A program made the translations under genes and the position numbers. Below, in pieces: positions 3,164 through 33,600 of a stretch of DNA of 36,970 bases. The DNA is from Candidatus Woesearchaeota archaeon. GTDB lineage: Archaea; Nanobdellota; Nanobdellia; Woesearchaeales; UBA10107. The stretch is taken from positions 1 to 36,970 of the forward strand of contig JAFGRQ010000017.1 of assembly GCA_016935155.1 (NCBI GenBank), given 5' to 3'. Under the pieces are notes generated by a model, which searched no databases, was not told where the DNA came from, and saw nothing but the letters and a program-made list of their open reading frames with translations. Within the stretch, counting starts at the first letter, position 1, and the number at the start of each line of letters is the position of its first letter.

Positions 3164-3276
3164 GTGGCTATTTTCTGTTCTTTTGTTTTTAAATGTTACT
3201 CAAAAAAACATGACGCCAGCACCCGGACAATGCCCAGCAAAGCTGTGCAAGCCCGTGTCCTGTCGTTTCTTCGAAA

Positions 3277-3361
3277 CGCCAGCGCCAGGATTTGAACCTG
3301 GAAGTCCTTGCGGACACTCGCTTTCGAGGCGAGCGCATTAACCAGATTTTGCTACGCTGGC
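3277..3361 (-). tRNA. tRNA-Ser(CGA)
   Basis: Reverse complement GCCAGCG-TA-GCAAAATCTGGTTAATGC-G-CTCGC-CT-CGA-AA-GCGAG-long variable arm-CCAGG-TTCAAAT-CCTGG-CGCTGGC-G; G73; CCA not encoded. Confidence 0.95.
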
Positions 3362-4036
3362 ATATTTTTCTAGCTTCCTTTGTTTTCTAGTGTGAGTGAA
3401 CCCTATCTCCTTTAAAAACCTTCTTCTGTCTTCTTTACGGGTTATGTGGAGCAAAAAATTAGTGTTCCACGTAGCTTTTTTCCTTTTGTATTCATATATT
3501 TTGCTTTGTATGTCGAATTCTTTTAACATGCTGCAAATTTGAATCAATCCAAATTTATTCACACTTTGTATAGTTATGGTTTTTTGTCCAACGTAGGCTT
3601 CACAGTCATAAAATGCACGAAGCCATTCTTTTCTTTCGGAAACCGATTTTAAATAGTTCAAGGGAACTCTCCATTCAAGACTATGAAATGAACCGTGTTT
3701 TAATAAATCTAGAACAATTGGTTTAGACGAAGCTCTGACTCGAAAATAGTTTTTTTCTTTTTTAATCTGTGGTTTTATTTCATATATTTTTTCAAATGCA
3801 AATAAAAAAGAATTTAACATTCTTTTGTTGTCTGGGAAGAAAGAAACATCATGGTGTTTGTGTGTTTTCCACGTTCTAGCTGAGACAAATCCATCTCCCA
3901 TCAAATATGCAAGTATTCTTGCTTTCAATCCGGGATATTTCGAACTATTTTTTTCTATTTTGTTTGTTTCATTTCGAAGAACTTTGCTCCACCTATTGAT
4001 TGCAATTTTTCTATTCCATTCAGATTTACTTAACAT
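3338..4036 (-). CDS. Free-standing LAGLIDADG (DOD/intein-type) homing endonuclease-like protein
   Basis: Two LAGLIDADG motifs, 'ILAYLMGDGFV' and 'WLRAFYDCEAYV', both with the acidic residue; C-terminal 'FLKEIGF.H..K..KL'; no Hint splicing motifs; last 24 nt lie inside tRNA-Ser(CGA). Confidence 0.88.
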   Translation of the reverse strand: MLSKSEWNRKIAINRWSKVLRNETNKIEKNSSKYPGLKARILAYLMGDGFVSARTWKTHKHHDVSFFPDNKRMLNSFLFAFEKIYEIKPQIKKEKNYFRVRASSKPIVLDLLKHGSFHSLEWRVPLNYLKSVSERKEWLRAFYDCEAYVGQKTITIQSVNKFGLIQICSMLKEFDIQSKIYEYKRKKATWNTNFLLHITRKEDRRRFLKEIGFTHTRKQRKLEKYASVAKSG

Positions 4037-4057
4037 GACTCAAGAAAGATTTCTGGG

Positions 4058-4088
4058 TTTAAATATCTCACGCGAGGTTGTCTTGTGG
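4058..4088 (-). promoter_or_regulatory. Putative TATA box plus conserved 13-bp motif CCACAAGACAACC upstream of LAGLIDADG gene 1
   Basis: Motif at 4076-4088 and TATTTAAA at 4058-4065; same motif and spacing recur at 15653-15683. Confidence 0.7.
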
Positions 4089-4154
4089 GAGAGGTGGCCC
4101 ATTGTCCCACGCTGGCCTATTGAATCGGAGCAGAACGTCAATATTAAAACCTTT

Positions 4155-6553: not shown

Positions 6554-6674
6554 TGAGCCCGAGGGGATTTGAACCCCCGACCCCATGGTTACTTTCGGAA
6601 CCTTGTTTCGAAAGTTCGAAAACGAAGGTTTTCGTTAAGAGCCATGTGCGCTAACCAGACTGCGCTACGAGCCC
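6554..6674 (-). tRNA. tRNA-Lys(CTT) with a 46-nt intron at 37/38 (intron 6590-6635)
   Basis: GGGCTCG-TA-GCGCAGTCTGGTTAGCGC-A-CATGG-CT-CTT-A[intron]A-CCATG-GGGTC-GGGGG-TTCAAAT-CCCCT-CGGGCTC-A; removing the intron gives a 75-nt cloverleaf. Confidence 0.92.
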
Positions 6675-6769: not shown

Positions 6770-6910
6770 ATGAAGGAAAAAGAGACCACGCTCAGACTTA
6801 GAGAGTCAACTAAAAAGAAACTCAACGAAATAGAATTTGCTAAGAAAGGAAAATCCTATGATGATATTCTCAATGAATTGCTCGACAAGTACGGGAGGCT
6901 GGCAAAATGA
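6770..6910 (+). CDS. Small ribbon-helix-helix DNA-binding protein (VapB/antitoxin-like), 46 aa
   Basis: Not in the ORF track. MKEKETTLRLRESTKKKLNEIEFAKKGKSYDDILNELLDKYGRLAK; beta-strand 'TTLRL' plus 'SYDDIL.ELL' pattern; ATGA overlap with the next gene. Confidence 0.8.
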   Translation: MKEKETTLRLRESTKKKLNEIEFAKKGKSYDDILNELLDKYGRLAK

Positions 6911-9900
6911 AAACAAAAGAATTTTTGCCGCTCCTTTTTGTGTTTATTGCTGTAATTAGTGCATTTGCTGTTTCAACAATAACCTCTGTGACAATCAATA
7001 CGACGTATTTCACAAACCAGACAGTAGAAAACATTACTGCTTATTGGGTTGACGGGGATGTTGTCAATATTACGGATTGGAGAGTGAATGGAAATTCGAT
7101 TGCCTATGCGTTCTGGCCGTTTGATGGAAGCACAAACAACACGAGAGCGGCTGACTATAGTACTAGCGGAAGAAATGGAACTGTCATTGAAGGAGGAACG
7201 GTTGTTGTTTGGGATGCTGTTGGAGGATTTGACGGACACGGAGCATTCAATTTCTCGGGAGGCGCAGGATATATAATCCATGATTCAAACATAAAAATAA
7301 ATTATTCTTATGGTGGCGGAACCATGGAGAATATTTCTGTTTTGTTCTGGGTGAAATCTCATCTCAATTCCGGCCAGCTGGGAATTTTTCAGCTTGCAAA
7401 CATGCTTAACAGCGGAAATCCATGCATTTTAATTCAAAAAAACGCAGGAAATCTGAGCTATTATGTTTCTGCAGGCTACAGGAATACAACGACGGATTTG
7501 GTACTGAACGAGTGGACGCATGTAGCAGTCACATTCAGCACCCAATCTCAGACTTGGAAATTTTACAGGAACGGCCAGGTTTTGAATGAATATTCGGGGC
7601 CGGCTACACACTGCGATACGCCGGTAAATGATATTTATTTGGGAAACGGGTTTAACGGATTTTTTAACGGCTCCGTAGATGATTTTAGATTGTACAACAG
7701 GTCACTGAGTGCAGAGCAGATACTCAATATCTACAACAACCGCTCAGATTTTATAAGTCACAACGACACATCAAGGGGAGAAAATTGGACTGTGTGCGTA
7801 ACACCATACAATGGTACGGATGTTGGGACTGAAGTTTGCTCAAATCAAATAACAATCAAAGAAAATATTGCGCCGATTGCAGTGAACGTCACAATCAACA
7901 CGACGAATGCAAGAAACTTTACTTCGGAGGACATCACAGTTTACTGGAGTTCAAGCGATGATGACGATTATGAAGGAGCCGTGGTCAATATCACGGATTG
8001 GAGGATGAACGAAACATCAATCGCTGTTTTGAATATGCCTTTTGAAGCAGACGGAAATCAGAATGCAACAGACTATTCAACATATGGGAGCAACGGAACA
8101 AATCAATGGGAAGTGACTTGGCTTCCTACTTCGGGGCATGATGGAGGAGGGACGTACCTTTTTGATGGAGCAGACTATATTGACCATGCTAGTCCTGTTC
8201 TTCCTATTGGGGATGACCCTTATGCAATAACCGCATGGATAAATACGACTGATGTGTGTGCTTATAGGGGAATTGTTGGATGGGGAGGTTACGGAAATTC
8301 AAATCAGGTAAACGCATTTAGATTTGATTCTGATTCTGTACAGCCCGGAGAAGATTGCCATCTCCTTAACTATTGGTGGGACACAGACCTCAATGTCAAC
8401 ACATCCATCCCAATAAGGGATGGTCAATGGCACTTTGTTATTGCAATGTATGACCAAACGACGCGTTCGATATGGATTGATGGCGTGCAAATGGGCAATG
8501 ACACTCCGGCAGCAGACCACGCAGTGCCCGATACAAGCAACTTCAGGATAGGCTCGACAAACGGCGAAAATTTCAACGGAATGATTGATGATGTGAAAAT
8601 ATTCAACAGGTCGCTTTCACCCGAACAAATAGCTTATTTATATCAACACAGGGTAGATATAATTTCAAGTTCAGAAACGCAAACAGGAGATATCTGGACA
8701 GCATGCGTAACACCGAATGATGGGTTTAATGGAAGGACTGTTTGTTCAAACAATTTAACTGTTGTGGGAGATAATGCTCCTCCTTCATGGAATGAAACAC
8801 CAACAAATCAGGAGTTAGAATATGGAAGCGTGTTCAATTATCAGGTAAATGCAAGCGACTCGCCGCTCAATAACTATTTCATAAACGATACAACAAGCTT
8901 CAATATAACGTCAACGACAGGAATCATTAATAATGTTTCTCTTCTTTCTGCAAAAACTTACTGGCTGAACATTTCAGCAAATGATACTTACAATAATCAA
9001 ATTTCAGCAATAATAAATGTTACTGTAACAGATACCATAAGTCTGCTTTCAATATATCCTAACGCGACGGAGGAGCTGCAAAACATTACAACAGAAACTA
9101 GTTTGAACTTAACAAAGAACTATACGGGAACAACAAATTTCACATTTAATGTCACGGCAGATGACATAGGAACAACAGCATTAACTTTCACATGGTTTGT
9201 AAATCAGGTAGTCGAGTTTGTTGAATCTTTGACTTCGGGATGGACAAGCATGTTCAGTTATTTCTTTTCCGTAGGTAATTACAACGTATCAGTTGTCGTA
9301 AACAATTCTTTTACAGAATTAAACGAAACATTTTCGTGGAATTTGACAGTAAATGATGCAAACCTGAATGTAACTGAACTTGCATGGATAACAACAACGG
9401 GAGTTACTTCAAGCGATTTACATTATAATCAAATAATAAAAAACATAACAACAAAAGTAAATTCCACAGTTTCTGCAACGGTGCTGCTTAATGTCCTGTA
9501 TCCAGACGGGACAAATCTGCTGACGAATGCAGAGATGACGAACGTCGATGGAACGGCATTCTACTATGATTCGCAGTTTATTCTTGACAGAGTCGGAAAT
9601 TGGAATATAACAATAACTGCAAATGAAACATCAGCAACATTTTCCAAGAGCTCATTGCTTGATGTGACGAGATTCACAAATCCAACAACGGCTGATGGAT
9701 ATGAAGGATTCGACTCAGGAAAAATTCCTTCTGCAGCGGAGATAAACAATCTTACTGCGTATGGATTTAACTTAGTTGGACTACAAATCAATTATTCCAG
9801 ATTCGACACGGATTGGGAAGCGCTGAAGGCGGCAATAAATTACACATTTTCTGATGAAGACAGCAGTTCATTCATAAAAATTTATTTTGACAAAGGAAAT

Positions 9901-12900
9901 TATTCAAATTACACGGGAGAATGCAATAAGGTGAACGCAAACATGACTGATTTGAGAAGTTACCCTTATGTCGATGGAACTGCGTTTATTGTTGTAGATT
10001 TGAATTCAACTGGAACAGATAATAAATCTTTATTTGTAAATTCTGTATCGGCGTGCATCGCGTCGGCAGTAAATGACCAGTTCCCGATTTATTCTGCAGT
10101 TTCTAACATCAGTCCGGATACAAATTACGTTTCGAATTGGACCATGCACAAAGTGTCAGGAAATAATTTAGAATATGCAACAAGCAGGGAAAACACAATC
10201 TTAAGGTTATCGACATTATATACCAGAATATATAACGGAACAAGTGATGAGTTCAAGAACTGGGCATCAGACTATTATTCTGGCGTTATTGCTAATCTTA
10301 GGGATAAGCCATCTTCAACTCAGCCAACAGACACAATCATTGCAAGACTCGACAATGGAGATTTGATAATCTTTAATAATCAGTCGGGCACATCGCAGAT
10401 AGTTAACTTATCAATTGCTGCAGGAAACGATGCGTGGGATTATACAAACAAAGAACTATTCGAAAACCTTTCGGCAGCATCAGAGAGTGTAGCAGTAACA
10501 ACGCCGCCATATTCAGCATCTATTTTGTTTTTGAACAATTTCAGCAAATTCATCATGATTGACAATGCAACTTCCACATTATACAAAGAAGGCTCGACGA
10601 TTTTTGCTCATTTCAATTACACCCAAGATACGTCCGGCTCAGGAACATATTCCATAGTAGGAACGCATGACGCTCTCACCGAAGTATGGAACCCGAATTA
10701 CGTCTTAGAAAATTTGGAATTTCATACTTATGAACAGTTGATGTATACAAAAATAACCGACTTTAACCCGTACGAAGTAATTGTAGTATCGATTGCGTCC
10801 GTAAATACTCCAACTGTTGTAAATCAATCTCTAAGAGTTTCTGAATTCCCAGATATTCTCAATAGAACTTACGGATATGTTTCCGTTTCTGACTACGACA
10901 ATTTAAACAGCACCGGACAAAACGAAACAAACTGTTCTCTGACGAACGGATGGGAAGATGATAAGAAATCAGAAATAAACAACGTAATTGCGAACTATTC
11001 AATAAATTTGTTCCTTGACGGGTTCGATATAGGATATACTGTCAGCCCGTCATGTTTTGAGGACAGAATAAAACGATTGGCTGATTACGTGAGATTTGAA
11101 AAGAACAAAAAATCAATTTTCAATACTTACACCATTTACGAAATGGTTTCAAATTACGGAGACAAGGTTATGAGAGAGTCTTGTTTTTCCAGATGGGCAG
11201 GGACTGTTGATTCTCCGACGTATTCTTACGAAAACATGACTTTGATGGTTGAGAATGCCAACTTCCTTTCAACGACAAATAAACCAGTTATTTGCATGGC
11301 GTTTGGGGATGTCAATGATTATGATAAAATGGCATGGGACTTTGCAGCTTTTGCAGTCATATACGGAACAAAAACAGGAGGCGGGGATAACAACACGTTC
11401 AGATATGCTCAGCCTAACTTCCAATTGCAGAGGGAAATAAGAGTTCCTGATTTGGGCAACATGCTGCAGAACACATATGATTCCTCAACAGACCCTTCTG
11501 ACTGGACCAGAAGATACTCAAATGGAATAGTTCATGTAAACCCCTTGAGAAATGAAACGTACAGCAATGGAAAATACTATTGGTTTGACGACGGCAGCAC
11601 AATAAACAATCTGAGTATCACATCACAGCATCAGCAATATCACAGCGGAGTTTGTCATGAAGACTACGATTCAGTTCTTACAATCTTTATTTCGAACAAT
11701 GGTTCATGGGAAGAAACATCACAAACCATAGGAAGCTGCGAGGTTTGTGCAGAAGATCCTAACTGCGGAACGGGAGATACGCAGTGGGTTGCGGGATATG
11801 TAACAAAACAGATAAATTGGACTCCGAACGGGCATTATTGGCTGGCATTCAGTCCAAGCATAGCAACATCAACAGGAATAAATCTGTACAATAAAATAAA
11901 CACCACGAGCGGAATTCATTCGTACTATGGAGATTTTATGGTAGGAAGTCTTGGAGATCCCGAAGATGGCTCGTGGAATGAGTATGGAAGAATAGGCACG
12001 TCTGGAAACATTTTTACAACCAACTGGGACATAAATGTAGAGACTAATCAGACAACAAGCGCGAGTGTGGATACTTCTTTGACGACAATAAGCAGCACAA
12101 TAGTTTACTATAATCTGACGACTCACAATCAGCATAATTTGACAATCACTTCCTCAAAATCATACAATCTTCCAGTGTTGGCAGAATCAATTTTGATAAA
12201 CGAATCGTATATCAGAGGAATTTTCTTCAATGGAACAGAGCTTAATGTATCAGATGATATAAACTGCCTTGAAGCAAATCCTGAATTCAATTATTCGAGT
12301 GTGAATGGATATCAGCACGGGGCATGCAGAGTTAACTCAAGCGATGGTTATTACTACCGGGTTTTGGCTCCTCATTTATCTACAATGGTTTATAGTGTTG
12401 AGATGGAAGGAAAACCAATTATCGAGGGAATATATCCTAATGCGACTGGCGATATGCAAAACATAACTGAAGGGAATCAAATAAATATGACCTCAGAATA
12501 CATTGCGACCAATCACTCTTTCAATGTAACCGCTTCGACATATGACAACCATTCGCTGACATTCACATGGATTGTAAACCAAGTTGTAAAGCTGATTGAA
12601 ACGCTGATTTCAGGGGCGACAAGTATGTTCAGCCAGTTTTTTGATATGGGAAGCTACAACATAAGTGTAACTATAAATGCATCAGATGTTTCGCAAAACA
12701 AAACATTTTCGTGGAACGTAACGGTCAGTGATACTACCGCTCCGGCATGGAATGAAACGCCAACAAATAGAACTGTTGAGTTTGGTGATGCACTTTACGT
12801 CAGGTTTAATGCAAGTGATGTGCTGTTCAGCGACTATTCGATTAACGACACAGAAAATTTCATAATTGATTCGTCGGACGGAACGCTCACAAATTATACT

Positions 12901-14505
12901 GAATTGTCGTTCGGAACATATGTTCTTTCTGTAACGGTCAACGACACCTCAAATAATCAGAATACAACTATGATTTACATATTTGTTCAGGATACTGTTG
13001 CGCCTTACTTCGTTCAGATTCCGCAGAATGCAACCGCAGAATATGGTTATGCATTCGAGATGATGGTTAATGGCACAGACAATACGGCTATTGACAAATA
13101 TCATTTCAATGACAATATTAATTTCACAATGAATTCCACAGGATTTATTCAGAATTACACTCTTCTTTTTAAGGGAGAGTACATACTGAATGTTACAATA
13201 AACGATACTTCAAACAATCAAAATTCAACCATATTTGGTCTGATTGTGAATGACTCGCTAACGCCGGGGCTTGTTTTGCTTGACCCGTACAATGAAGCAG
13301 GAGACAATGACGGAAATGTTTCATTCACTTTCAATGTTTCAGACAAGTCAGAAATAATTAACTGCACATTTAATTTCAGCGGTTCATTCAATCAATCGGA
13401 TAATTTGATTACGAGGGACATTGTGCAGGATTTCATCGTCAACAATCTGGATGTCGGGGAATATAATTGGAGCATTACTTGCACCGATGCTTCAAATCAT
13501 ACTAATGTAAGCGGGACAAGATTCTTCAATGTAGTCAAAACAACAGAATTTTCGGGGGACACAACAAATCTCACTCAGGTCAATCTTTCGAATATTGCAA
13601 ATTTCACTCTTGAGGAAACGACATACGGAAAGATAACTTTCCTTGAAAATGTGAATCTGAGCGGGGCAATTAATGTGGACGATTTTGTAAATGTTTCATA
13701 CAACAGAACGGAGGTAAACTCGAGCGGTCTTCCAACTCTGAACACGTCGGCAAGGGTAACTCTTTATGGTCTTCCTTTTACCAACCCGAGACCTATGAAG
13801 GACGGAGAAGTGTGTTCAGACTGCACTGAAATTTCATATGCAGGAGGCATATTTGTCTTTGAAGTAACTTCCTTCAGCGTTTATTCTGCGGGAGAAACTC
13901 CTGTCACGTCAGGAGGTGGAGGAGGGGGCGGATCTGGAAGTGGTTCATACATAACATTGGTTGAATGCAGAACGGATGCTGAATGCGGAGTTCTCGGATA
14001 CTGTTATGAAAATGAGTGCGTACCGTATGAATGTGTCGCGAACGGCGATTGTATGCCGGGCCAAGTATGTTTGATGAACAAGTGTGTGGATTATGATGTA
14101 AAGTCAGAATCCACAAAACAAGAAGCGGTAGAAGAAGCACCCAAAGCAATAACAGCAAGTGCAACGAAAGAACCCGAGAAAAAGAAAGGGTTCAAAATGC
14201 CCGAGTTCAGACTGCCTAAATTGAGTCTGAGCCCAGCGATGAGAGATGCAATCGCGAAAACAACCACCGTTTTTGTTGCAATAATTTTGATTTTGACGAT
14301 TGTTTTGCAGATTAAAAAATCGCTGTCGATAAGCAGAGAAGGAAAATACTTGGATAAGCTTGTTGTCCAAAACAGAATCGCATACAGACTTGGCAACATG
14401 GAAGAGGCAGCAAAGACTTATGAAAAATTCAAGGAAGAACTCGAAAGGAGCCCGGAAGATGTCAAGCAAAAATTCAAAGATGTTGAACAAACGTTGAACA
14501 AATAA
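6907..14505 (+). CDS. Giant membrane-anchored surface glycoprotein (2 LamG/ConA-like domains, Ig/cadherin/PKD-like repeats, putative TIM-barrel glycoside-hydrolase-like region, Cys-rich repeats, C-terminal TM)
   Basis: Signal peptide; LamG motifs 'WTHVAVT...FNGSVDDFRLYNRSLS' and 'WHFV...FNGMIDDVKIFNRSLS'; repeated 'D..AP.WNETP.N' cadherin-like units; many NxS/T sequons; Gly/Ser linker; 'C..D.EC.....C....C' repeats; TM 'TVFVAIILILTIVL'. Confidence 0.85.
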   Translation: MKTKEFLPLLFVFIAVISAFAVSTITSVTINTTYFTNQTVENITAYWVDGDVVNITDWRVNGNSIAYAFWPFDGSTNNTRAADYSTSGRNGTVIEGGTVVVWDAVGGFDGHGAFNFSGGAGYIIHDSNIKINYSYGGGTMENISVLFWVKSHLNSGQLGIFQLANMLNSGNPCILIQKNAGNLSYYVSAGYRNTTTDLVLNEWTHVAVTFSTQSQTWKFYRNGQVLNEYSGPATHCDTPVNDIYLGNGFNGFFNGSVDDFRLYNRSLSAEQILNIYNNRSDFISHNDTSRGENWTVCVTPYNGTDVGTEVCSNQITIKENIAPIAVNVTINTTNARNFTSEDITVYWSSSDDDDYEGAVVNITDWRMNETSIAVLNMPFEADGNQNATDYSTYGSNGTNQWEVTWLPTSGHDGGGTYLFDGADYIDHASPVLPIGDDPYAITAWINTTDVCAYRGIVGWGGYGNSNQVNAFRFDSDSVQPGEDCHLLNYWWDTDLNVNTSIPIRDGQWHFVIAMYDQTTRSIWIDGVQMGNDTPAADHAVPDTSNFRIGSTNGENFNGMIDDVKIFNRSLSPEQIAYLYQHRVDIISSSETQTGDIWTACVTPNDGFNGRTVCSNNLTVVGDNAPPSWNETPTNQELEYGSVFNYQVNASDSPLNNYFINDTTSFNITSTTGIINNVSLLSAKTYWLNISANDTYNNQISAIINVTVTDTISLLSIYPNATEELQNITTETSLNLTKNYTGTTNFTFNVTADDIGTTALTFTWFVNQVVEFVESLTSGWTSMFSYFFSVGNYNVSVVVNNSFTELNETFSWNLTVNDANLNVTELAWITTTGVTSSDLHYNQIIKNITTKVNSTVSATVLLNVLYPDGTNLLTNAEMTNVDGTAFYYDSQFILDRVGNWNITITANETSATFSKSSLLDVTRFTNPTTADGYEGFDSGKIPSAAEINNLTAYGFNLVGLQINYSRFDTDWEALKAAINYTFSDEDSSSFIKIYFDKGNYSNYTGECNKVNANMTDLRSYPYVDGTAFIVVDLNSTGTDNKSLFVNSVSACIASAVNDQFPIYSAVSNISPDTNYVSNWTMHKVSGNNLEYATSRENTILRLSTLYTRIYNGTSDEFKNWASDYYSGVIANLRDKPSSTQPTDTIIARLDNGDLIIFNNQSGTSQIVNLSIAAGNDAWDYTNKELFENLSAASESVAVTTPPYSASILFLNNFSKFIMIDNATSTLYKEGSTIFAHFNYTQDTSGSGTYSIVGTHDALTEVWNPNYVLENLEFHTYEQLMYTKITDFNPYEVIVVSIASVNTPTVVNQSLRVSEFPDILNRTYGYVSVSDYDNLNSTGQNETNCSLTNGWEDDKKSEINNVIANYSINLFLDGFDIGYTVSPSCFEDRIKRLADYVRFEKNKKSIFNTYTIYEMVSNYGDKVMRESCFSRWAGTVDSPTYSYENMTLMVENANFLSTTNKPVICMAFGDVNDYDKMAWDFAAFAVIYGTKTGGGDNNTFRYAQPNFQLQREIRVPDLGNMLQNTYDSSTDPSDWTRRYSNGIVHVNPLRNETYSNGKYYWFDDGSTINNLSITSQHQQYHSGVCHEDYDSVLTIFISNNGSWEETSQTIGSCEVCAEDPNCGTGDTQWVAGYVTKQINWTPNGHYWLAFSPSIATSTGINLYNKINTTSGIHSYYGDFMVGSLGDPEDGSWNEYGRIGTSGNIFTTNWDINVETNQTTSASVDTSLTTISSTIVYYNLTTHNQHNLTITSSKSYNLPVLAESILINESYIRGIFFNGTELNVSDDINCLEANPEFNYSSVNGYQHGACRVNSSDGYYYRVLAPHLSTMVYSVEMEGKPIIEGIYPNATGDMQNITEGNQINMTSEYIATNHSFNVTASTYDNHSLTFTWIVNQVVKLIETLISGATSMFSQFFDMGSYNISVTINASDVSQNKTFSWNVTVSDTTAPAWNETPTNRTVEFGDALYVRFNASDVLFSDYSINDTENFIIDSSDGTLTNYTELSFGTYVLSVTVNDTSNNQNTTMIYIFVQDTVAPYFVQIPQNATAEYGYAFEMMVNGTDNTAIDKYHFNDNINFTMNSTGFIQNYTLLFKGEYILNVTINDTSNNQNSTIFGLIVNDSLTPGLVLLDPYNEAGDNDGNVSFTFNVSDKSEIINCTFNFSGSFNQSDNLITRDIVQDFIVNNLDVGEYNWSITCTDASNHTNVSGTRFFNVVKTTEFSGDTTNLTQVNLSNIANFTLEETTYGKITFLENVNLSGAINVDDFVNVSYNRTEVNSSGLPTLNTSARVTLYGLPFTNPRPMKDGEVCSDCTEISYAGGIFVFEVTSFSVYSAGETPVTSGGGGGGGSGSGSYITLVECRTDAECGVLGYCYENECVPYECVANGDCMPGQVCLMNKCVDYDVKSESTKQEAVEEAPKAITASATKEPEKKKGFKMPEFRLPKLSLSPAMRDAIAKTTTVFVAIILILTIVLQIKKSLSISREGKYLDKLVVQNRIAYRLGNMEEAAKTYEKFKEELERSPEDVKQKFKDVEQTLNK

Positions 14506-14777: not shown

Positions 14778-14783
14778 TGTGAG

Positions 14784-14922
14784 CGCCGTGGCCCGGATTT
14801 GAACCGGGATATCCTTGCGGAAACAAGCTCTATGGTACTTTCCTTGGAAAGTGATTCCAGGCTTACGCTCATGGCTTTTTAAAGGCCACAATTTGCGCAG
14901 TACCAGGTTGTGCCACCACGGC
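14784..14922 (-). tRNA. tRNA-Ser(GGA) with two introns: 30 nt at 29/30 (14863-14892) and 25 nt at 37/38 (14830-14854)
   Basis: GCCGTGG-TG-GCACAACCTGGTACTGC-G-CAA[intron1]GC-CT-GGA-A[intron2]A-GCTTG-variable arm TTTCCGCAAGGATAT-CCCGG-TTCAAAT-CCGGG-CCACGGC-G; the 84-nt mature form folds; both introns have BHB-like junctions. Confidence 0.88.
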
Positions 14923-15652: not shown

Positions 15653-15683
15653 TTTTTAATGTTTTTGTGCGGTTGTCTTGTGG
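15653..15683 (-). promoter_or_regulatory. Putative TATA box plus conserved 13-bp motif CCACAAGACAACC upstream of LAGLIDADG gene 2
   Basis: Motif at 15671-15683 and ATTAAAAA at 15653-15660; same offsets from the start codon as in copy 1. Confidence 0.7.
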
Positions 15684-27515: not shown

Positions 27516-27693
27516 AAAAATCCCTTTTCCGGTTTCTGTCGATGAAGAAATTGTAGAAAAAATAAACCGGGAAGTTGAAAAGGGAGTCTTCAGAAACCGT
27601 TCTCATCTAGTTGAACAGGCAATCCTGAATTTCAAAAAGAAAAGAGAGCTTGGAACTTTAGCAAAATTCACGGAGGAGAAAGATGAAAAATAA
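27508..27693 (+). CDS. CopG/MetJ/Arc-type ribbon-helix-helix protein, 61 aa (tandem paralog)
   Basis: MTKKIPFPVSVDEEIVEKINREVEKGVFRNRSHLVEQAILNF...; shares FRNRSHLVEQAI exactly with the upstream copy; SD-like GGAGG before ATG 27508. Confidence 0.85.
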   Translation: MTKKIPFPVSVDEEIVEKINREVEKGVFRNRSHLVEQAILNFKKKRELGTLAKFTEEKDEK

Positions 27694-30600
27694 GTCCTCC
27701 ATAAAATATATGTTCGCTCTTGCTCTCCTTCTGGCTTCTTTCAGCTTCGCTTTGTTTTCAATACAGCCGGGAGATAATTTTATGGCAATTACTGGATTGA
27801 CCACAATATCCGGCGGCGGCGGAAATCTTTCAACTTTAATAATATATGATGATTTGGATTTGAGCGGAAGCGACGGAACTCTGATTCAAAACTATGTATT
27901 TTATGCAAATTACTCGAACACAACAGACTCTGTAAATATAACTGGAGCAACATGCGACATAAATTTCACGGACTTGAGTGGCGCAATGACTTACAACACA
28001 ACATCTACATTTTATGAATTTGTGAGGAATTTCAGTTCGTCAGGGCAAAAGCATTACAATATCTCCTGTTATGCATCAACATTTGAACAGTTAAATGCAA
28101 CGGACAGCATAAACGTTACAAACTTCGCCAACTGCGACAGCTGTGATTCGTGTTCGAGAGCAGCGCAAATTGGAAATTTAACAGTCAATTTAACACAGTC
28201 TATTAATACGACGGTGAGCTGCATAAATCTCAGCGATTCGGACAATATCGTGATTGACTGCAATAGTTTTTTGATAAATTCAACGGCAGCGGCCGCTTCA
28301 GATGTTTCGCTGATTTCGGGAGGAAGCGTTGATTATCCTCTTGACATGAACGACCGCATTTCTGTTAAAAACTGCAATCTCTCGGGAACCGCAGGCAGTG
28401 CAATCAAATTGAACGGAACGGCCTTCTTTGCGGCCAATTTGAACTTAGAAAACATAGATACAGGCAGCGGATCAGCAGTCAATATTCACGGCGGAAATGA
28501 TTCTTGTATAGTGAATAGTTCCTTCATTAATTTGGATAATATTGCTGTTTATTTGTATGGCAACAGCAGAAGCAATTTCACGCTGGACAGCTGTTTTTTC
28601 GATACAAATACATACGGATTTTTAATTGATGGGGGAATTGTCAACGAAATCAAAATAACTAATAATATTTTTTCGAATTCAGCAACTTCAGCAGTGCTAA
28701 TGCAGGTGTTAGCTCCATTTACCGCAGCAGGATTGCTATTTTCAAACAATACAATAACGAACGTGTCTACTGATCATGGTGTATTTACAAACGCCATAAC
28801 TAATATCAACATAAGTGATAATTGCTTCATTAATGTTAGCGGCAAAGGAATTTATGTTATTGCCTCTCAAAACGGAACAATCTCAAACAACATCGTAGAT
28901 TTGTGCGGGACAGGAATTGATTTGACAACGTCAGGCAACATGACAATATCAAACAACAGCTTGACAAATTCAACAACAGCAATAATGATAACCGCCTCAG
29001 GAAATAGCACAATAACGCGGAATTCTATTTTGAGTTCCGAATACGGAATTGATGTCGGGGGAGGTTCGTTTTTTGATATCATTACTCAAAATTATGTTTC
29101 CGGCATCTCAGGGCAGGCTGATTCAGCGGCAATAAATCTGCAGAATGGCGCAGGCAATACATCTGTTATCAATGGAAACCTTCTTTTCAATTCAACTTAC
29201 GGAATTAGAATAGGTTCCGTAAGCGGGTTGATAATTGCAAACAACACGATAGAAAATAATTCTTTTGACATATTAAGTTCAACACAAATTAGCTACTCTT
29301 TCGAGAAAGGAAACAATTCTGTTGATTTTCCATCCATTTTGAATGTGAGCAACAGCCAGCAGAACATTTTCTTAAATGACAGCATAATCTCAATTAATGC
29401 ATCTCTCGAGTTAAGCCTAAACAGGTCAGCAAATGTAACTCTTGTGCTACCTTATGGAACATGTCCTGCAAAGATTTACTATTATGGTTCATTTACGACA
29501 AACCGTTCATTAATTGTTGACGACGGCCAGCTTTGCACAGCATCAACAAATCCCGCATGCACTAACATGGTTTGTTCCGGCAATTTAATTTCATTTACTG
29601 TGGCTCATTTCGATGGTTATGCAGTCGGATTCGGAACTGCTCCGGAAGTAAACAATGTGATATTGAATTCAACATATTCTACAAACTTCACAACAGAAAA
29701 TCTGACTGCTTACTGGAATTCAACAGATCCTGAAAATGACACGGTTGTGAACATAACTGACTGGAGAATTGACGGTGTGTCTTATGCAAGACTTAATCTT
29801 CCTTTCGAAGGAGGGAGCAATTCTACATACACAAAAGATTATTCCTCATACAATGCAGATGTATTTGTAGTTAATGCTACTTGGAATTATACGGGAGGAC
29901 ACGATGGTTATGGAGCATATGATTTCAACGGAAACCGCAGCTATATCTACACTCCCCTGAATGCAAGTGATTTCAACAGAAGCATGGCAGTTAGTCTGTG
30001 GTTAAAAACAGAAAGCAACGGCAGTGTGATGGGTTTCTCTGACGGCATACCTTTTGGAGGAAATTATGATAAGGAAATAACTGTGATGGGAGACGGAAGC
30101 ATAGATTTCCGCTTATATCCCAACGACCCATATATCGGTGCAGCTACAACGGGAGTAGATGTAATGGATGGACTTTGGCATCACTTGGCTGTCATCAGAA
30201 GTTTCGATGAAGGAACTTTCATTTATGTTGACGGCGTTTTGAGGGCATCAACAACAAGTATAGAAAATGAAAGCCAAGGATATGAAGGATATTTAACAGT
30301 AGGAATCAACACGCAGCACAAAATATACTTCAACGGAACAATTGATAACTTTTTGATTTTCAATAAATCTATTTCATCGCAGGAAGTTTTGCTTCTTAAT
30401 GTATCAAGAACAGATACGCTTTCAAAATACGAGACACTAACAGGAGAAAACTGGTCTGTCTGCGTAACTCCCAATGACGGAACTTTCGACGGCACAACAG
30501 TCTGTTCAAACAATATTTCAATAAGAAACAAAGCAGAATTTATTTCTGTTTATCCAAATCAGACGAATGAATGGCAGAACATAACCGCCGACGATACTAA

Positions 30601-33600
30601 CATAACTTTGACAATAAATTCAACTTCCTCTCAAAACACAACATTCAATGTTACAATTACTGCAGACAGCGCAACATTCACGTTCAGCTGGTTTGTAAAT
30701 GGGATTTTAGAATTTGTTGATGTGGTAGTCAATGGATTCATAAGCATGTTCAGCAGGATATTCCTGGCAACAGACATGACTAATGTGACGGTTGTTGTAA
30801 ATTCAACAGAAGCGGGCGTAAATGACACATTTACATTCCATGTGAACGTAACTTGTTTAATTCCTTCAGCAGACGGATTTACATTGAATGAAGATGGAAT
30901 AACTTTGTGTCCAGGAAACTATACCATAAATGGAAGTATAATAATCAACACAAGCAATGTTTATCTGAGCTGCGACGGGTCGACTTTAACAGGGAATGCA
31001 ACAAACCAAGCATTCAAGCAGGTCAGTCTTCACAGCATAAGCAACATAACAATCAGAGACTGCATTTTCAAAAATTTCAACGGAGCAATATATTTGATGA
31101 ATGTAAGCACAGCGTATTTCCTGAATAATTCCTTCCACAACAACACATACGGAATTTTCGTAAGCTCTTCAATAAATGCAACAATTTCAAACAACACATT
31201 TTACAGCGGACTTTATGGGATTGTGAATGATGTTGAAGGAGACAAGAACACAATTTCGTACAATAACTTCTACAATCAAACTGGTGAAGCAATTTCCATA
31301 ATCCAAAAAGGACCGACAATAGAGTATAATGTATTTGATGGATGTACGCTCGGAATTGGGCTGGAATTCAATCCGTACGGCGGAGGAAATGCAAACAGGA
31401 ATTTAATCGGCTCCAACATAATTAAAAACAATTCGATAGGCATACGTGCAAGAGCTTCTTACCATAACCAATTCACCGATTTGAATATTTCATATACGCG
31501 CCAGGCATTCTTGTTCAGCGATGTTCCTTCATTTGGAGCGGTAAACGTAAATAACTCAATAATAAATCCTCTTTTCCTCGGCAACACTCACGACGTAGTT
31601 TTCAATTACGATGCAAACGAGAGCGACAATAACACTCTTTTCATAAATGACACTCTGGCAAATTCAGTTACATTTTTCTTGGTTGGAAACATAACAAACC
31701 TAACAAACAATTACTTCCTAAATTCAAGCATAATTGCTGTAAACACAACAGGGGAGCCAAATCTAAATACGAATGCAACGGTCTCATTTGCGGTGCCTTC
31801 ATGCAGTGTCGAGCTGTTCAGAAACACAGGATATTATGAGGAAATTTCAGGTGCGGAAAGCGAAGCATCTCAGTGCACTTCATGTGAGAATATTGTCTGT
31901 GCAAATAGCATAATGAATTTCACAACACCATCGTTTTCCACAATATTCGCAGCATCCATTCCAAACATAACGGAAATATTTCCAAATTCAACTAACGGAA
32001 CACCCCCTGTATTGGGAGAGGATACAAATGTTTCCATCGTTGTAGAAACGGGAACAAATATCACATATAATGTAACCGCGCTTGATTATGATTCAGCCAC
32101 GCTGACATTCTCGTGGTTTGTTGACGGCGTTGAGGCACTTGTCGAGGCGGTGGTGGGTGTTCTGAACACTTTTGTCAGCATATTCAACAAGATTTTTTCA
32201 GACATAGCGTATCACAACATTACATTAGTGATAAATGATTCAGCAAGGCAGGACAATTTCACATTTTATGTGCTGTCCAACGATACAATTTCTCCTTTAT
32301 TCAATGAGTCCCTGAGCAACATAACTGCAGAAGTCGGGGAGGCAATTGCATATGATGTTAATGCATCGGATTTATTCTTTGATAAATATTCGGTAAATGA
32401 CACAACAAGATTCAAAATAAATTCGAGCACAGGACTGCTTGAAAATGCAACGTTTGTTTCCTACGGATGGTATGAAATAAATATTTCCGTTAATGATACA
32501 AATAACAATGTTAATTCATCAGTAATTTGGGTCTTTGTCAACGATACAATTCCTCCGTCATTCAACGAAACTCTCAGCAACATAAGCACATATGCAGGAT
32601 ATTCTGTCTATTACTGGATTAATGCATCTGATTTGTCCGGGGTTGATGCATATTACATAAATGACACAGTCAGATTTAAAATAAACAGGAGTACAGGTAT
32701 CATGGAAAACATTACCTCTCTGACCGCAGGAACCTTTGCAGTAAACATAACGGTCAATGATACTCTTGGAAACATAAATTATTCTGCAATAACCGTTTTT
32801 GTCTCTGATATTCCGACAACGCCAGCAACCGAAACTGGAGGAAGATCTACCCATTCAGGAATTTTCTATACTCCTCCTGCTGAAGAAACAGAACCGGTAC
32901 TGGAGGTTCCTTCTGCATCCGTTTCGTCAATAACCGCGGAAAACATAAATCTTAATCCCTTCGCATGCACGGAAGTAGCAGGGGTAAGTCAGACAACCAG
33001 TTCAATTAAACCAGGAACTTCAATTTCAAATTTAATTTTGAAGCCAGGATATGAAGTTCTCGTTTCTCCTTTCAAGGTTGAATGTACCGATTCAAGTTTC
33101 AAAATAAGTCTGTCTCTGCCGGATTCATACACAAACATAACTGCATTAAGATGCAGAGGAAACGACTGCAGTGCAGTATCATTAAAAGAGATTTTCAATT
33201 TGGAATGCGGAGAAGACATATTCGAAAACATTGAAAGGACATCATCTGTGCTGTCTCCAGAATTTTTCCCTCTTCCATTAGAAAGAGTTGAATCAAAACC
33301 AGGAACCGCAGAAGTTTCTTCAAGCAGAACAAGATTGGTTTTCTCCGGAATAATAGACGGAAAACTAGCCATTGACAAAGTGTTTGGAGATGTTCCTGAA
33401 GCACAAAATCCAAAAATAAAGATTGTCAGCACGCCTACACAAATATTATTTGATTCATTGAATCAAAAGCCAATGAACATAACCCTTCCATATTTGTTCG
33501 AGGAAAAAGTAGATGAATACAGCATTGCGCTTTACGCATTGAAAAATAACGAGTGGAATTATATCGGAGGAACGGTCAACGCAGGTTCCAAAACAGTTAC

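What the first reader, a model, noticed from the sequence alone, without database searches (positions are those of the whole stretch)
3202..4149. LAGLIDADG + tRNA-Ser(CGA) cassette bracketed by copies of the tRNA ends that can pair into an outer acceptor-like duplex
Seen on the minus strand, in order: a TATA-like TTTTAATA (4142-4149); about 26 nt later GCCAGCGT (4116-4109), an exact copy of the first 8 nt of the tRNA (3361-3354), followed by G-GGACAATG; then, downstream of the tRNA, CATTGTCC-GGG-TGCTGGCG (3232-3214), which repeats the tRNA 3' end; then a T7 tract (3202-3208). The two flanks can pair with 14 Watson-Crick and 2 G-U pairs and a 1x2 internal loop. The G-U pairs work only on the minus strand, the transcribed one. 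The duplex would enclose about 870 nt holding the nuclease ORF and the tRNA. Each flank also has a competing local hairpin. Inference: the 8-nt 5' copy could be a target-site duplication from insertion at tRNA position 8/9 (removing it restores promoter+tRNA), or the outer stem is a processing or circularisation signal.
Basis: partly seen in the sequence, partly recalled or inferred. Interest (0 to 1): 0.8.

Follow-up and report, generated by a model that had tools for sequence, protein, structure and literature searches.

The report
Nested tRNA-Ser gene with homing endonuclease
A serine tRNA gene of a small archaeon lies, with an inserted selfish nuclease gene, between leftover copies of its own two ends; such copies are common around tRNA genes in this genus, so their ability to pair is mostly inherited, not a special signal.

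Summary

- **Outer copies exist without the nuclease.** Two same-genus genomes lacking any LAGLIDADG gene here (G005, G004) have the same nested layout: promoter, 5' end copy plus hairpin, complete tRNA-Ser(CGA), hairpin plus 3' end copy, T-tract. A third (G003) has the same promoter directly on a plain tRNA.
- **3' end copies are common.** They follow 8 of 31 tRNAs in this genome and about 10 of 41 in G005. About 0.02-0.05 per genome is expected by chance. They sit behind two conserved hairpin modules.
- **Module B.** It shows covariation and was found in one genus only. CATTGTCC is part of it.
- **The duplex.** The acceptor-like 7-8 bp is inherited. The extra 8 bp is rare by chance (46 of 100,000 shuffles). 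It is absent from the other nested loci and poorly populated in the 903-nt fold. No bulge-helix-bulge motif was seen, and no RNA data were available.
- **The nuclease.** It is a free-standing, probably active I-DmoI-like enzyme with its own promoter. Its ORF ends inside the tRNA, as in a 45%-identical metagenomic relative.

The parts
4142..4149 (-). TATA-like box TTTTAATA, the presumed original promoter of the tRNA-Ser(CGA) gene. It lies 25 nt upstream of the outer 5' copy.
   Evidence: The same box with the same 25-nt spacing precedes the plain tRNA in G003 and the outer 5' copy in G005. That it works as a promoter is inferred.
4107..4116 (-). Outer 5' copy of the tRNA start, GCCAGCGTGG. It matches 8 of 8 nt of the inner tRNA. 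With the next three bases it matches 12 of 13 nt of the G005 tRNA-Ser(CGA) 5' end.
4085..4110 (-). Local 5' hairpin GTGGGA...TCCCAC, which competes with the long-range stem. The same position holds a hairpin closed by the end of the 5' copy in G005, G004 and G000 Ser(TGA), with different stem sequences.
   Evidence: The covariation was read by eye, not counted.
4100..4107 (-). GGACAATG, the 5' arm of the 8-bp extension of the outer duplex. It is specific for this genome.
   Evidence: No counterpart in the G005 or G004 nested loci.
4076..4088 (-). CCACAAGACAACC, a promoter-upstream motif shared by 13 sites in the genome. Here it lies 9 nt before the nuclease gene's TATA-like box.
4058..4066 (-). 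ATATTTAAA, the TATA-like box of the nuclease gene, ending 21 nt before its ATG (short-leader or leaderless mRNA inferred).
   Evidence: The same layout occurs in L077.
3338..4036 (-). Free-standing single-chain LAGLIDADG homing-endonuclease gene (232 aa). The last 24 nt, including the TAA stop, lie inside the tRNA (D-loop).
   Evidence: Pfam. D48 and E146 are invariant in 7 of 7 relatives. AlphaFold pLDDT 92. Foldseek matches PI-PfuI and I-DmoI.
3277..3361 (-). Complete, intron-less tRNA-Ser(CGA), the inner functional gene. It is 96% identical to the G003 tRNA and about 71% to that of G005.
3222..3258 (-). Family-B hairpin module (ACACGGGCTT-GCACAGC-TTT-GCTGGGC-ATTGTCCGGG). It contains CATTGTCC (3232-3225), the 3' arm of the extension.
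   Evidence: Alignment and pair counts. Model R1 scores it 48.9 bits, but it was one of the sequences the model was built from.
3214..3227 (-). Outer 3' copy TCCGGGTGCTGGCG: T-stem 3' strand, acceptor 3' strand and discriminator. 12 of 14 nt are identical to the inner tRNA end.
3202..3208 (-). T7 tract, the likely terminator of the whole unit. Only TTT follows the inner tRNA.
   Evidence: Termination is inferred.

Best explanation
The bracket consists of two partial copies of the ends of the tRNA-Ser(CGA) gene. They belong to a recurrent kind of tRNA-gene rearrangement in this genus, not to the nuclease insertion.

**Anatomy**
- The original promoter still carries the first 8-10 nt of an older tRNA start, followed by a small local hairpin.
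- The T7 terminator still follows an older T-stem/acceptor 3' strand, which is preceded by a conserved family-B hairpin.
- Between them lies a complete, newer tRNA-Ser(CGA).
- In this genome only, there is also a free-standing LAGLIDADG homing-endonuclease gene with its own promoter. Its ORF runs 24 nt into the tRNA.

**Why the flanks pair.** The two outer pieces copy the two strands of an acceptor stem, so they are complementary by descent. The extra 8 bp (GGACAATG/CATTGTCC) uses the constant part of the B module and is peculiar to this genome.

**Likely working (inferred).** Transcripts from the outer promoter and/or the nuclease promoter run to T7. RNase P and tRNase Z release the tRNA. The RNase P cut removes the stop codon from the nuclease mRNA, so only unprocessed transcripts can give a normally terminated protein. 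The outer pieces are leader and trailer.

**Shown versus inferred.** The anatomy, the distribution among relatives and the conservation are shown. The transcription, the processing, the order of events and the mechanism that makes the end copies are inferred.
For: 1. **Nested loci without a nuclease gene.** G005 has TATA, 25 nt, a 13-nt 5' copy, a hairpin, tRNA-Ser(CGA), a B hairpin, a 15-nt 3' copy and a T-tract. G004 has a 14-nt 5' copy with another hairpin type, the tRNA, an A module and a 16-nt 3' copy. G001, G002 and G003 have plain genes.
2. **3' copies are frequent.** They lie 53-105 nt behind 8 of 31 tRNAs in G000, plus one tRNA cut by a contig end. In G005 the union gives 10 of 41. 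Shuffled flanks give 0.015-0.05 per genome.
3. **Module B is a real, local family.** 98.9% of cells are paired and 3 pairs change on both sides. It was found in 5 of 101 genomes, all of one genus out of 96 genera. CATTGTCC is part of its constant sequence.
4. **The flanking elements turn over.** The orthologous tRNA-Cys carries B in G000 and A in G005.
5. **The inner tRNA looks newer than the outer copies.** It is 96% identical to the G003 tRNA and 71% to that of G005. The outer copies resemble the G005-type ends: 12 of 13 nt at the 5' end, and a CCGGG T-stem at the 3' end.
6. **The nuclease cassette exists elsewhere without the bracket.** L077 has a 45%-identical ORF that ends 15 nt inside an intron-bearing tRNA-Ser(CGA) and has no outer 5' copy.
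7. **RNase P is available.** RNase P RNA is present at 150.8 bits.
8. **The nuclease looks intact.**
Against: - The 8-bp extension next to the copies is rare in shuffles (46 of 100,000), so pure chance is a poor account of it. I have no positive explanation for it.
- Outer 3' copies stay identical to the tRNA's acceptor strand plus discriminator in about 17 of the 19 elements I compared by eye.
- In two G000/G005 pairs (Gly-GCC; Thr) the outer copy carries the same acceptor substitution as the inner tRNA. This fits selection for pairing as well as recent origin.
- The three nuclease-free nested precursors fold (MFE) with the outer stem closed (3 of 3).
- The mechanism that creates the copies is unknown. 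The repeat lengths vary (9-26 nt), which does not fit a fixed-stagger transposase.
- All 5' copies seen are at tRNA-Ser genes, the neighbours of this nuclease family. A link between the 5' copy and nuclease activity therefore cannot be excluded.
- There is no transcript evidence of any kind.
Confidence: 0.6

Rival explanations
1. The outer stem is functional. The primary transcript begins with a copy of the tRNA 5' strand and ends with a hairpin plus a copy of the 3' strand. Together these form an acceptor/T-arm-like minihelix that is kept by selection. It would serve precursor stability or docking of RNase P, tRNase Z or the CCA enzyme. In this genome it was lengthened by 8 bp to hold together the 900-nt nuclease-tRNA precursor.
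For: - MFE folds of 3 of 3 nuclease-free nested precursors close the outer stem.
- Promoter and terminator sit at the outer copies, not at the inner tRNA.
- Outer 3' copies match the tRNA's acceptor strand in about 17 of 19 elements and follow acceptor substitutions between G000 and G005 (Gly-GCC, Thr).
- The B hairpin's closing stem pairs with the copied T-stem strand and covaries (C-G, U-A, U-G).
- The 8-bp extension is rare by chance.
Against: - Most tRNAs with a 3' copy have no 5' copy, so there is no outer stem in most cases.
- A-type modules are preceded by T5-T7 tracts that should end transcription before the copy.
- The extension is not conserved in the other nested loci.
- The predicted probability of the stem in the 903-nt RNA is 4e-4 to 4e-3, and the MFE does not use it.
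- Module B also occurs away from tRNAs with unrelated closing stems.
- The family is confined to one genus, which fits a young repeat better than a processing device.
Confidence: 0.15
2. The 5' copy is a scar of nuclease-linked recombination at tRNA-Ser genes. The LAGLIDADG family cuts tRNA-Ser genes, and repair or homing leaves a duplicated 5' part upstream. In G005 and G004 the nuclease gene was later lost and replaced by short hairpin repeats.
For: - All 5' copies seen are at tRNA-Ser genes: window Ser-CGA, G000 Ser-TGA (two copies), G005 Ser-CGA and Ser-GCT, and G004 Ser-CGA. None was seen at other tRNAs in the scans of G000 and G005.
- Both nuclease paralogues sit directly upstream of tRNA-Ser genes. 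In 5 of 5 loci of the second type the ORF is followed by tRNA-Ser(GGA).
- In four relatives an 11-nt copy of the tRNA's D-arm (CTGGTACTGCG) lies between the TATA box and the ATG of the nuclease gene.
- Nuclease presence tracks an intron at or near that very site. It is present in 5 of 5 nuclease-bearing loci and in 1 of 4 nuclease-free ones.
Against: - L077 has the nuclease+tRNA-Ser(CGA) cassette without a 5' copy.
- The 5' hairpin types differ between G004 and G005.
- This account does not explain the 3' copy, which is common at tRNAs that have no nuclease neighbour.
- No remnant of a nuclease ORF was noticed in the 50-nt inserts.
Confidence: 0.15
3. The outer pieces are exons or processing arms of an archaeal bulge-helix-bulge element. 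The nuclease gene plus the inner tRNA would be excised by the splicing endonuclease and circularised, as with rRNA introns that carry LAGLIDADG genes.
For: - This genome and its relatives have tRNAs with several introns at unusual sites.
- The nuclease fold is closest to archaeal intein- and intron-encoded enzymes.
- A 3-nt bulge (GGG) lies between two helices of the drawn duplex.
Against: - There is no second bulge 4 bp away. The helix runs on for 8 bp and the opposite strand has 1-2 unpaired bases, so the defining geometry is not met (by eye).
- The inner tRNA is complete on its own.
- There is no Rfam intron match in the window.
- The nested loci of G005 and G004 show no such motif either (by eye).
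Confidence: 0.04

Closest known systems
Partial tRNA gene copies left by integration of mobile elements into tRNA genes (att repeats), e.g. the 21.4-kb island PYG1 of Pyrococcus yayanosii between a partial and a complete tRNA-Gln with 44-bp direct repeats (PMC9897764; abstract and section 12 read)
   Same: A complete tRNA and a same-sense partial copy of one of its ends flank inserted DNA. A true example exists in the same genus. In G003, tRNA-Ser(CGA) is followed by a Phage_integrase gene, and a repeat of its last 10 nt plus trailer lies 11.7 kb away.
   Different: - Here the DNA between the tRNA and its 3' copy is only about 45-90 nt, has no integrase, and is one of two conserved hairpin modules shared by many different tRNAs.
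- 5' and 3' copies can bracket the same tRNA.
- Repeat lengths vary from 9 to 26 nt.
tRNA-Thr(GGU) locus of Caldiarchaeum subterraneum: a 5' tRNA fragment 1.8 kb upstream of the complete gene, separated by an element that encodes a recombinase (PMC3293823; abstract read)
   Same: The layout 5' fragment - mobile gene - complete tRNA matches that of the window. It is taken there as evidence that mobile elements disrupt and duplicate archaeal tRNA genes.
   Different: - The inserted gene here is a LAGLIDADG nuclease, not a recombinase.
- The 5' fragment here is only 8-13 nt.
- The same fragment occurs in relatives without any inserted gene.
Free-standing homing endonucleases that sit beside the conserved gene they target, including 'collaborative homing', where a nearby intron interrupts the target site, and autorepression by an operator resembling the homing site (phage T4 seg genes near tRNA genes, F-CphI/psbA, I-TevI).
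   Same: The nuclease is not inside an intron or intein, has its own promoter, and abuts a conserved RNA gene. In the sister cassette, nuclease presence goes with an intron in the neighbouring tRNA-Ser(GGA), and a copy of the exon side of that site lies in the nuclease's promoter region.
   Different: - The host is an archaeon and the enzyme class is LAGLIDADG.
- The ORF overlaps the tRNA.
- The target site is unknown, and neither cleavage nor homing was tested.
I-DmoI and other LAGLIDADG enzymes of archaeal rRNA bulge-helix-bulge introns
   Same: Single-chain two-motif fold. Foldseek gives a TM-score of 0.76-0.78 normalised to I-DmoI, E about 1e-9. Acidic residues are conserved in both motifs.
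   Different: Sequence identity is 16-19%. The gene is not inside an intron, and no bulge-helix-bulge motif brackets it.
Split, permuted and multi-intron archaeal tRNA genes (reviews PMC4033280 and PMC3978253; search listing only)
   Same: The organism is the same kind, with heavily disrupted tRNA genes. The ends of precursors pair in those systems.
   Different: In those systems no complete tRNA is encoded in one piece and the pairing forms a bulge-helix-bulge. Here the inner tRNA is complete and the motif is missing.

Membership tests
LAGLIDADG homing endonuclease (single-chain, two motifs) | Match to a LAGLIDADG profile | tested here: met
   PF14528 at E 4.7e-14, 52.8 bits against a cut-off of 22.5.
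LAGLIDADG homing endonuclease (single-chain, two motifs) | Two motif helices, each ending in a catalytic acidic residue | tested here: met
   G47-D48-G49 and E146 are invariant in 7 of 7 aligned relatives. Their assignment as catalytic is by analogy.
LAGLIDADG homing endonuclease (single-chain, two motifs) | Pseudo-dimeric alpha-beta-beta-alpha-beta-beta-alpha fold | tested here: met
   Model pLDDT 92, pTM 0.87. Best PDB matches are PI-PfuI (E 1.1e-11), the TliVMA intein nuclease and I-DmoI.
LAGLIDADG homing endonuclease (single-chain, two motifs) | Site-specific DNA cleavage and homing | not testable with these tools
   Only the patchy distribution speaks for mobility. At tRNA-Ser(CGA) it is present in 1 of 6 genus genomes.
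Target-site duplication made by the nuclease-gene insertion | The duplication is present only where the insert is present | tested here: not met
   G005 and G004 have the 5' copy without the gene. L077 has the gene without the 5' copy.
Archaeal bulge-helix-bulge intron or processing stem | Two 3-nt bulges on opposite strands separated by a 4-bp helix at the boundaries | tested here: not met
   By eye, there is one 3-nt bulge (GGG) opposite 1-2 unpaired bases, followed by an uninterrupted 8-bp helix. No scanner was run.
Archaeal bulge-helix-bulge intron or processing stem | Excised or circular RNA product | not testable with these tools
   No RNA holder of this stretch was listed, and the laid RNA contigs covered only tRNA-like parts of other organisms.
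att repeat of an integrase-borne mobile element in a tRNA gene | A direct repeat of the tRNA 3' part at the far end of an element that encodes an integrase | tested here: not met
   A direct repeat is present, but only about 50 nt lie between tRNA and copy and there is no ORF. The G003 locus shows the true form.
Split or permuted tRNA gene | No uninterrupted complete tRNA; halves joined through leader-trailer pairing | tested here: not met
   The inner tRNA is complete and canonical.
Family-B hairpin module (defined here) | Closing stem, CTT, GCAC-stem-loop-stem-GGGC, ATTG, closing stem | tested here: met
   Window 3258-3222 aligns with 8 other copies. 98.9% of cells are paired and 3 pairs change on both sides. 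It is one of the sequences the model was built from, so its model score is not independent.

The most novel reading that the evidence does not exclude
In this genus some pre-tRNAs are built as a tRNA inside a pseudo-tRNA. The primary transcript starts with a copy of the tRNA's 5' strand and ends with a T-arm-like hairpin plus a copy of its 3' strand. These pair into an outer minihelix that selection keeps matched to the inner acceptor stem. The minihelix would serve as a handle for end-processing or protection of the precursor. The homing-endonuclease gene has settled inside this frame, and the stem was lengthened by 8 bp to hold the 900-nt precursor together.
Probability: 0.12. Interest if true: 0.8.

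Novelty: new variant of a known kind. Interest (0 to 1): 0.5.

Why it matters
- **For annotation.** The acceptor-like bracket is not evidence of a new processing signal. It is what two displaced gene ends look like.
- **For the evolution of archaeal tRNA genes.** The locus and its relatives give a compact, datable series. tRNA-Ser(CGA) is plain in three species, nested in three, and nested with a nuclease in one. Short structured repeats sit exactly at the D-loop and T-loop sides of duplicated tRNA ends. This bears on the old question of how archaeal tRNA genes become interrupted, duplicated and split.
- **For homing endonucleases.** A free-standing LAGLIDADG gene whose stop codon lies inside an essential tRNA is an unusual coupling, since tRNA maturation would truncate the nuclease mRNA. 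The sister cassette offers a testable case of a nuclease working together with a tRNA intron.

Tried and rejected
- **Whole-transcript fold** (931 nt). The MFE does not contain the outer duplex. On its own this is weak evidence for so long an RNA.
- **Rfam.** At gathering thresholds on the window, and at E up to 10 on both flanks, only tRNA matches and chance-level hits appeared. No group I intron or other family was found.
- **Outer flanks as two halves of an older tRNA split by a newer copy.** Local alignment of the flanks (without the exact end copies) against the tRNA scored no better than shuffles: 1074, 866, 753 and 690 of 2,000 shuffles were at least as high. The idea is kept only as speculation.
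- **Modules A and B as ends of a virus or plasmid.**
  - The A core had 0 exact matches in viral contigs.
  - The loose B pattern gave 29 stretches. By my own estimate, not a computed control, that is near chance for 18 specified bases. None scored above 21.2 bits with model R1, against 43-53 bits for true copies.
  - The far end of the integrase element in G003 is not B-like.
- **Expression.** No RNA holder was listed for this stretch. The four runs laid were contigs. The two RNA runs covered only 34-38 nt of tRNA-like sequence at under 95% likeness. Nothing can be said about transcripts.
- **DNA contigs of run X1.** They break at 4057-4088, where the repeated promoter motif lies. No joint skipping the nuclease gene was listed.
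- **Metagenome scan with the nuclease protein.** It gave only 2 loci, one of them cut by the contig end. This is too few for covariation of the stem.
- **Brute-force removal of candidate introns from the second cassette's tRNA.** ARAGORN called Ser(gga) for my boundaries, but it gave many other calls for neighbouring boundaries. I rest that reading on the variable arm and on the orthologues.
- **Tools and sources not available or not used.**
  - The first request for sequencing runs did not complete and was repeated unchanged.
  - Complex prediction, the protein atlas and the large protein searches were not used.
  - Supplementary tables of PMC9897764 (S2, S3), which may list other small partial tRNA duplications, were not seen.
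Full report
**1. Observation**

On the minus strand the window reads as follows:
- TTTTAATA at 4149-4142, directly after the stop of a GtrA-family gene (4610-4155).
- 25 nt of spacer.
- GCCAGCGT at 4116-4109, then G, then GGACAATG at 4107-4100.
- A 232-aa ORF at 4036-3338.
- tRNA-Ser(CGA) at 3361-3277.
- CATTGTCC-GGG-TGCTGGCG at 3232-3214.
- T7 at 3208-3202.

The ORF is a LAGLIDADG_3 protein (E 4.7e-14). Its last 24 nt, with the TAA stop, lie in the tRNA's 5' part. RNAduplex gives -25.5 kcal/mol for the two arms: -13.4 for the end-copy part and -10.0 for the 8-bp extension.

**2. Is it more than chance?**

- The acceptor-like part is complementary because the arms copy nt 1-8 and the last 8 nt of the tRNA.
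- The 8-bp perfect extension next to them occurred in 46 of 100,000 shuffles of the adjoining 30 nt. This criterion was chosen after the fact. An 8-bp match anywhere in the 30x30 nt occurred in 87 of 5,000 shuffles.
- The best duplex between the whole flanks is not unusual. 175 of 1,000 shuffles were at least as stable, and 622 of 1,000 with the copies kept.
- In the 903-nt RNA from 4116 to 3214, forcing the stem costs 3.5-4.9 kcal/mol against the ensemble, giving P of about 4e-4 to 4e-3.
- The MFE of the 931-nt stretch does not use the stem.

**3. Relatives without the nuclease**

The window is contig C33 of a 771-kb, roughly 90% complete genome. It has intron-bearing tRNAs and an archaeal RNase P RNA (150.8 bits). 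A DNA search of the six genomes of the genus and reading of the loci gave three states of tRNA-Ser(CGA).

| State | Genomes | Layout |
|---|---|---|
| Plain | G001, G002, G003 | In G003, CTTTTAATA, then 25 nt, then the tRNA |
| Nested, no nuclease | G005, G004 | See below |
| Nested with nuclease | G000 only | The window |

- **G005:** CTTTTAATA, 25 nt, a 13-nt copy of the tRNA start, a hairpin, the complete tRNA, a hairpin, a 15-nt copy of the tRNA end, then TTCTTTTC. The MFS gene follows, as in the window.
- **G004:** a 14-nt 5' copy with a different hairpin, the tRNA, a different 3' module, and a 16-nt 3' copy.

The outer copies therefore do not depend on the nuclease gene. The conserved promoter spacing says that the outer 5' copy is the old start of the gene.

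In these nuclease-free nested loci the pairing does not extend beyond the acceptor-like 7 bp, apart from G-U pairs (by eye). Their MFE folds do close the outer stem in 3 of 3.

**4. A genus-wide feature**

ARAGORN with introns found 31 tRNAs in G000 and 41 in G005.

*3' copies*
- In G000, an exact copy of the acceptor 3' strand plus discriminator lies within 140 nt downstream of 8 of 31 tRNAs: Phe, Cys, Met, Thr-TGT, Gly-GCC, Leu-TAA, Arg-GCG and the window's Ser-CGA. A ninth tRNA is cut by a contig end.
- In G005 the union of three scans gives 10 of 41. One of these, Val-GAC, has decayed.
- Shuffled flanks give 0.015-0.05 per genome.
- In some cases the repeat runs on into the trailer, for example 26 nt at Leu-TAA and about 15 nt at the G005 tRNA-Lys. 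The duplication is therefore at the DNA level.

*5' copies*
- I saw them only at tRNA-Ser genes: the window, G000 Ser-TGA (two copies), G005 Ser-CGA and Ser-GCT, and G004 Ser-CGA.

*Module A*
- It contains GGTCTCGGAACCGAAGGTTCTGAGG.
- All 5 copies found in G000 and all 3 in G005 follow a tRNA.

*Module B*
- It is a closing stem, CTT, GCAC-stem-loop-stem-GGGC, ATTG, closing stem.
- Nine copies align with 98.9% of cells paired. Three pairs change on both sides, and 0 of 500 shuffles reach the covariation score. The sample is small and the sequences are related.
- CATTGTCC of the finding is the constant ATTG plus the copied T-stem strand of module B.
- A model of B found it in 5 of 101 genomes, all in one genus of 96 genera searched, with the stricter filters.
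- Its weaker hits lie in other intergenic places, with closing stems of unrelated sequence.

*Turnover*
- The orthologous tRNA-Cys has B in G000 and A in G005. Other tRNAs carry a module in one species only.

**5. The nuclease cassette**

*Distribution*
- The genome has a paralogue at 15631-14951, 35% identical.
- Among 61 genomes, 15 have a match at E <= 1e-5. The best non-self matches are 33-37% identical. All five of that group, own paralogue included, are followed within about 30-45 nt by an intron-bearing type-II tRNA. I read this tRNA as Ser(GGA). ARAGORN's labels for it are inconsistent.
- A metagenomic contig (L077) has a 45%-identical ORF that ends 15 nt inside an intron-bearing tRNA-Ser(CGA). 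It has the same kind of promoter region and no outer 5' copy.
- A 151-nt contig of another study covers 3275-3418 with 3 differences.

*The protein*
- D48 and E146 are invariant in 7 of 7 sequences.
- The model has pLDDT 92.
- It matches PI-PfuI, the TliVMA intein nuclease and I-DmoI.

*The promoter*
- The gene has its own TATA-like box (4066-4058) behind the motif CCACAAGACAACC.
- That motif occurs at 13 places in the genome with at most 1 mismatch. By eye, 12 of them have a TATA-like box 9-10 nt downstream. It is therefore a promoter element, not a piece of tRNA.

*Age of the inner tRNA*
- The inner tRNA is 96% identical to that of G003 and about 71% to that of G005.
- The outer copies resemble G005-type ends.
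- I infer that the cassette (nuclease plus its tRNA) entered an already nested locus, or replaced its inner tRNA by co-conversion. Ancestral presence followed by loss cannot be excluded.

**6. How it most likely works**

- Shown: the anatomy and its distribution.
- Inferred: transcription from 4116 and/or from about 4036 through to T7, since only TTT follows the inner tRNA.
- Inferred: RNase P and tRNase Z release the tRNA. The RNase P cut removes the last eight codons and the stop from the nuclease mRNA, so tRNA maturation and full-length nuclease synthesis compete.
- The outer pieces would be leader and trailer. They can pair because of their origin.
- The origin of the end copies is open. 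A true integrase element with a repeat of the tRNA end exists in G003, but the short modules have no integrase and no viral counterpart. A test for relic tRNA halves was negative.

**7. What speaks for more**

- The rarity of the 8-bp extension.
- The near-constant identity of outer 3' copies with the tRNA's acceptor strand, including shared substitutions between species at Gly-GCC and Thr (by eye).
- The placement of promoter and terminator at the outer copies.

These points keep a functional outer minihelix alive as a minority reading. The restriction of 5' copies to tRNA-Ser genes keeps a link with the nuclease family alive.

**8. Comparison with the known**

- Partial tRNA copies are known as by-products of integration of 9-23-kb elements (PMC9897764, abstract and section 12).
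- A 5' tRNA fragment upstream of a complete gene, with a recombinase element between them, is described in Caldiarchaeum (PMC3293823, abstract).
- I found no description of 45-90-nt hairpin modules with tRNA-end copies, or of a LAGLIDADG ORF ending inside a tRNA. Three full-text searches were run, and only listings were read for most hits. This is not proof of absence. The supplements were not seen.

**9. Verdict**

The target-site idea is right only in that the 5' copy is the displaced gene start. The processing-stem idea is unsupported. The finding is a new variant of known tRNA-gene disruption by mobile DNA, with an unexplained and interesting repeat system around it.

Noticed in passing
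window 14783-14922 (-): The tRNA after the second LAGLIDADG gene is, by my reading, tRNA-Ser(GGA) with two introns: about 30 nt at the D-arm/anticodon-stem junction and about 25 nt after position 37. ARAGORN calls it His(gtg) with one intron, and Rfam misses it.
   Followed up: partly
L003-L006, about 10-40 nt upstream of the nuclease ATG; tRNA alleles in L147, L148, L149, L150: In four relatives an 11-nt copy of the tRNA-Ser(GGA) D-arm (CTGGTACTGCG) lies between the TATA box and the ATG of the nuclease gene. This is the exon sequence just before the first intron of the neighbouring tRNA. An intron at or near that site is present in 5 of 5 nuclease-bearing loci and in 1 of 4 nuclease-free alleles (G003 yes; G001, G004, G006 no). 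It suggests a nuclease that targets the intron-less site, and perhaps an operator.
   Followed up: partly
window 4076-4088 and 15671-15683 (-); 11 further sites in G000: The motif CCACA(A/G)GACAACC lies 9-10 nt upstream of TATA-like boxes of unrelated genes. There are 13 sites with at most 1 mismatch. It is probably a shared promoter or regulator site. Contigs of run X1 break there.
   Followed up: partly
G000 C1, C20, C22, C28, C29, C44, C45; G005 C1 (many places): Two conserved hairpin modules (A and B) sit between tRNAs and copies of their 3' ends. Module B is confined to one genus. It also occurs in other intergenic spots, often 10-70 nt from the start codon of a gene on the other strand.
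   Followed up: partly
G000 C49 1832-1936 (-); G000 C20 3471, C29 36184, C52 7076, C22 1334, C39 1943: The hairpins of the 5' elements (ACAATCTCGGCAAAGCCGAGCTGTCGC and CACGCCGAGGGAAACCCTCGTCTAC types) are also dispersed repeats away from tRNAs.
   Followed up: no
G003 C3 483679-495500 (L079, L080): tRNA-Ser(CGA) of G003 is followed by a tyrosine integrase gene (PF00589, E 1.9e-22). A repeat of its last 10 nt plus 14 nt of trailer lies 11.7 kb downstream, so this is an integrated element. A similar sequence follows tRNA-Glu(TTC) in G000 C29 and tRNA-Ser(GGA) in G003.
   Followed up: partly
L009 (G055) and L010 (G015): A different small LAGLIDADG gene lies about 85-110 nt downstream of an intron-bearing tRNA-His in two other families of the order. 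Free-standing LAGLIDADG genes beside tRNA genes may be common in this order.
   Followed up: no
window 6554-6674 (-): tRNA-Lys(CTT) with a 46-nt intron. It is found by Rfam, and by ARAGORN only when introns are allowed.
   Followed up: no
window 6907-14505 (+) and 27683-34975 (+): Two very long ORFs of 2532 and 2430 aa. They were not examined.
   Followed up: no
L005 (G032), tRNA after the nuclease gene: Its tRNA-Ser(GGA) appears to have three introns (D-loop, anticodon loop, T-loop). The T-loop intron ends in hairpin-ATTG-AAAG before TCCGGG, which is reminiscent of module B.
   Followed up: no
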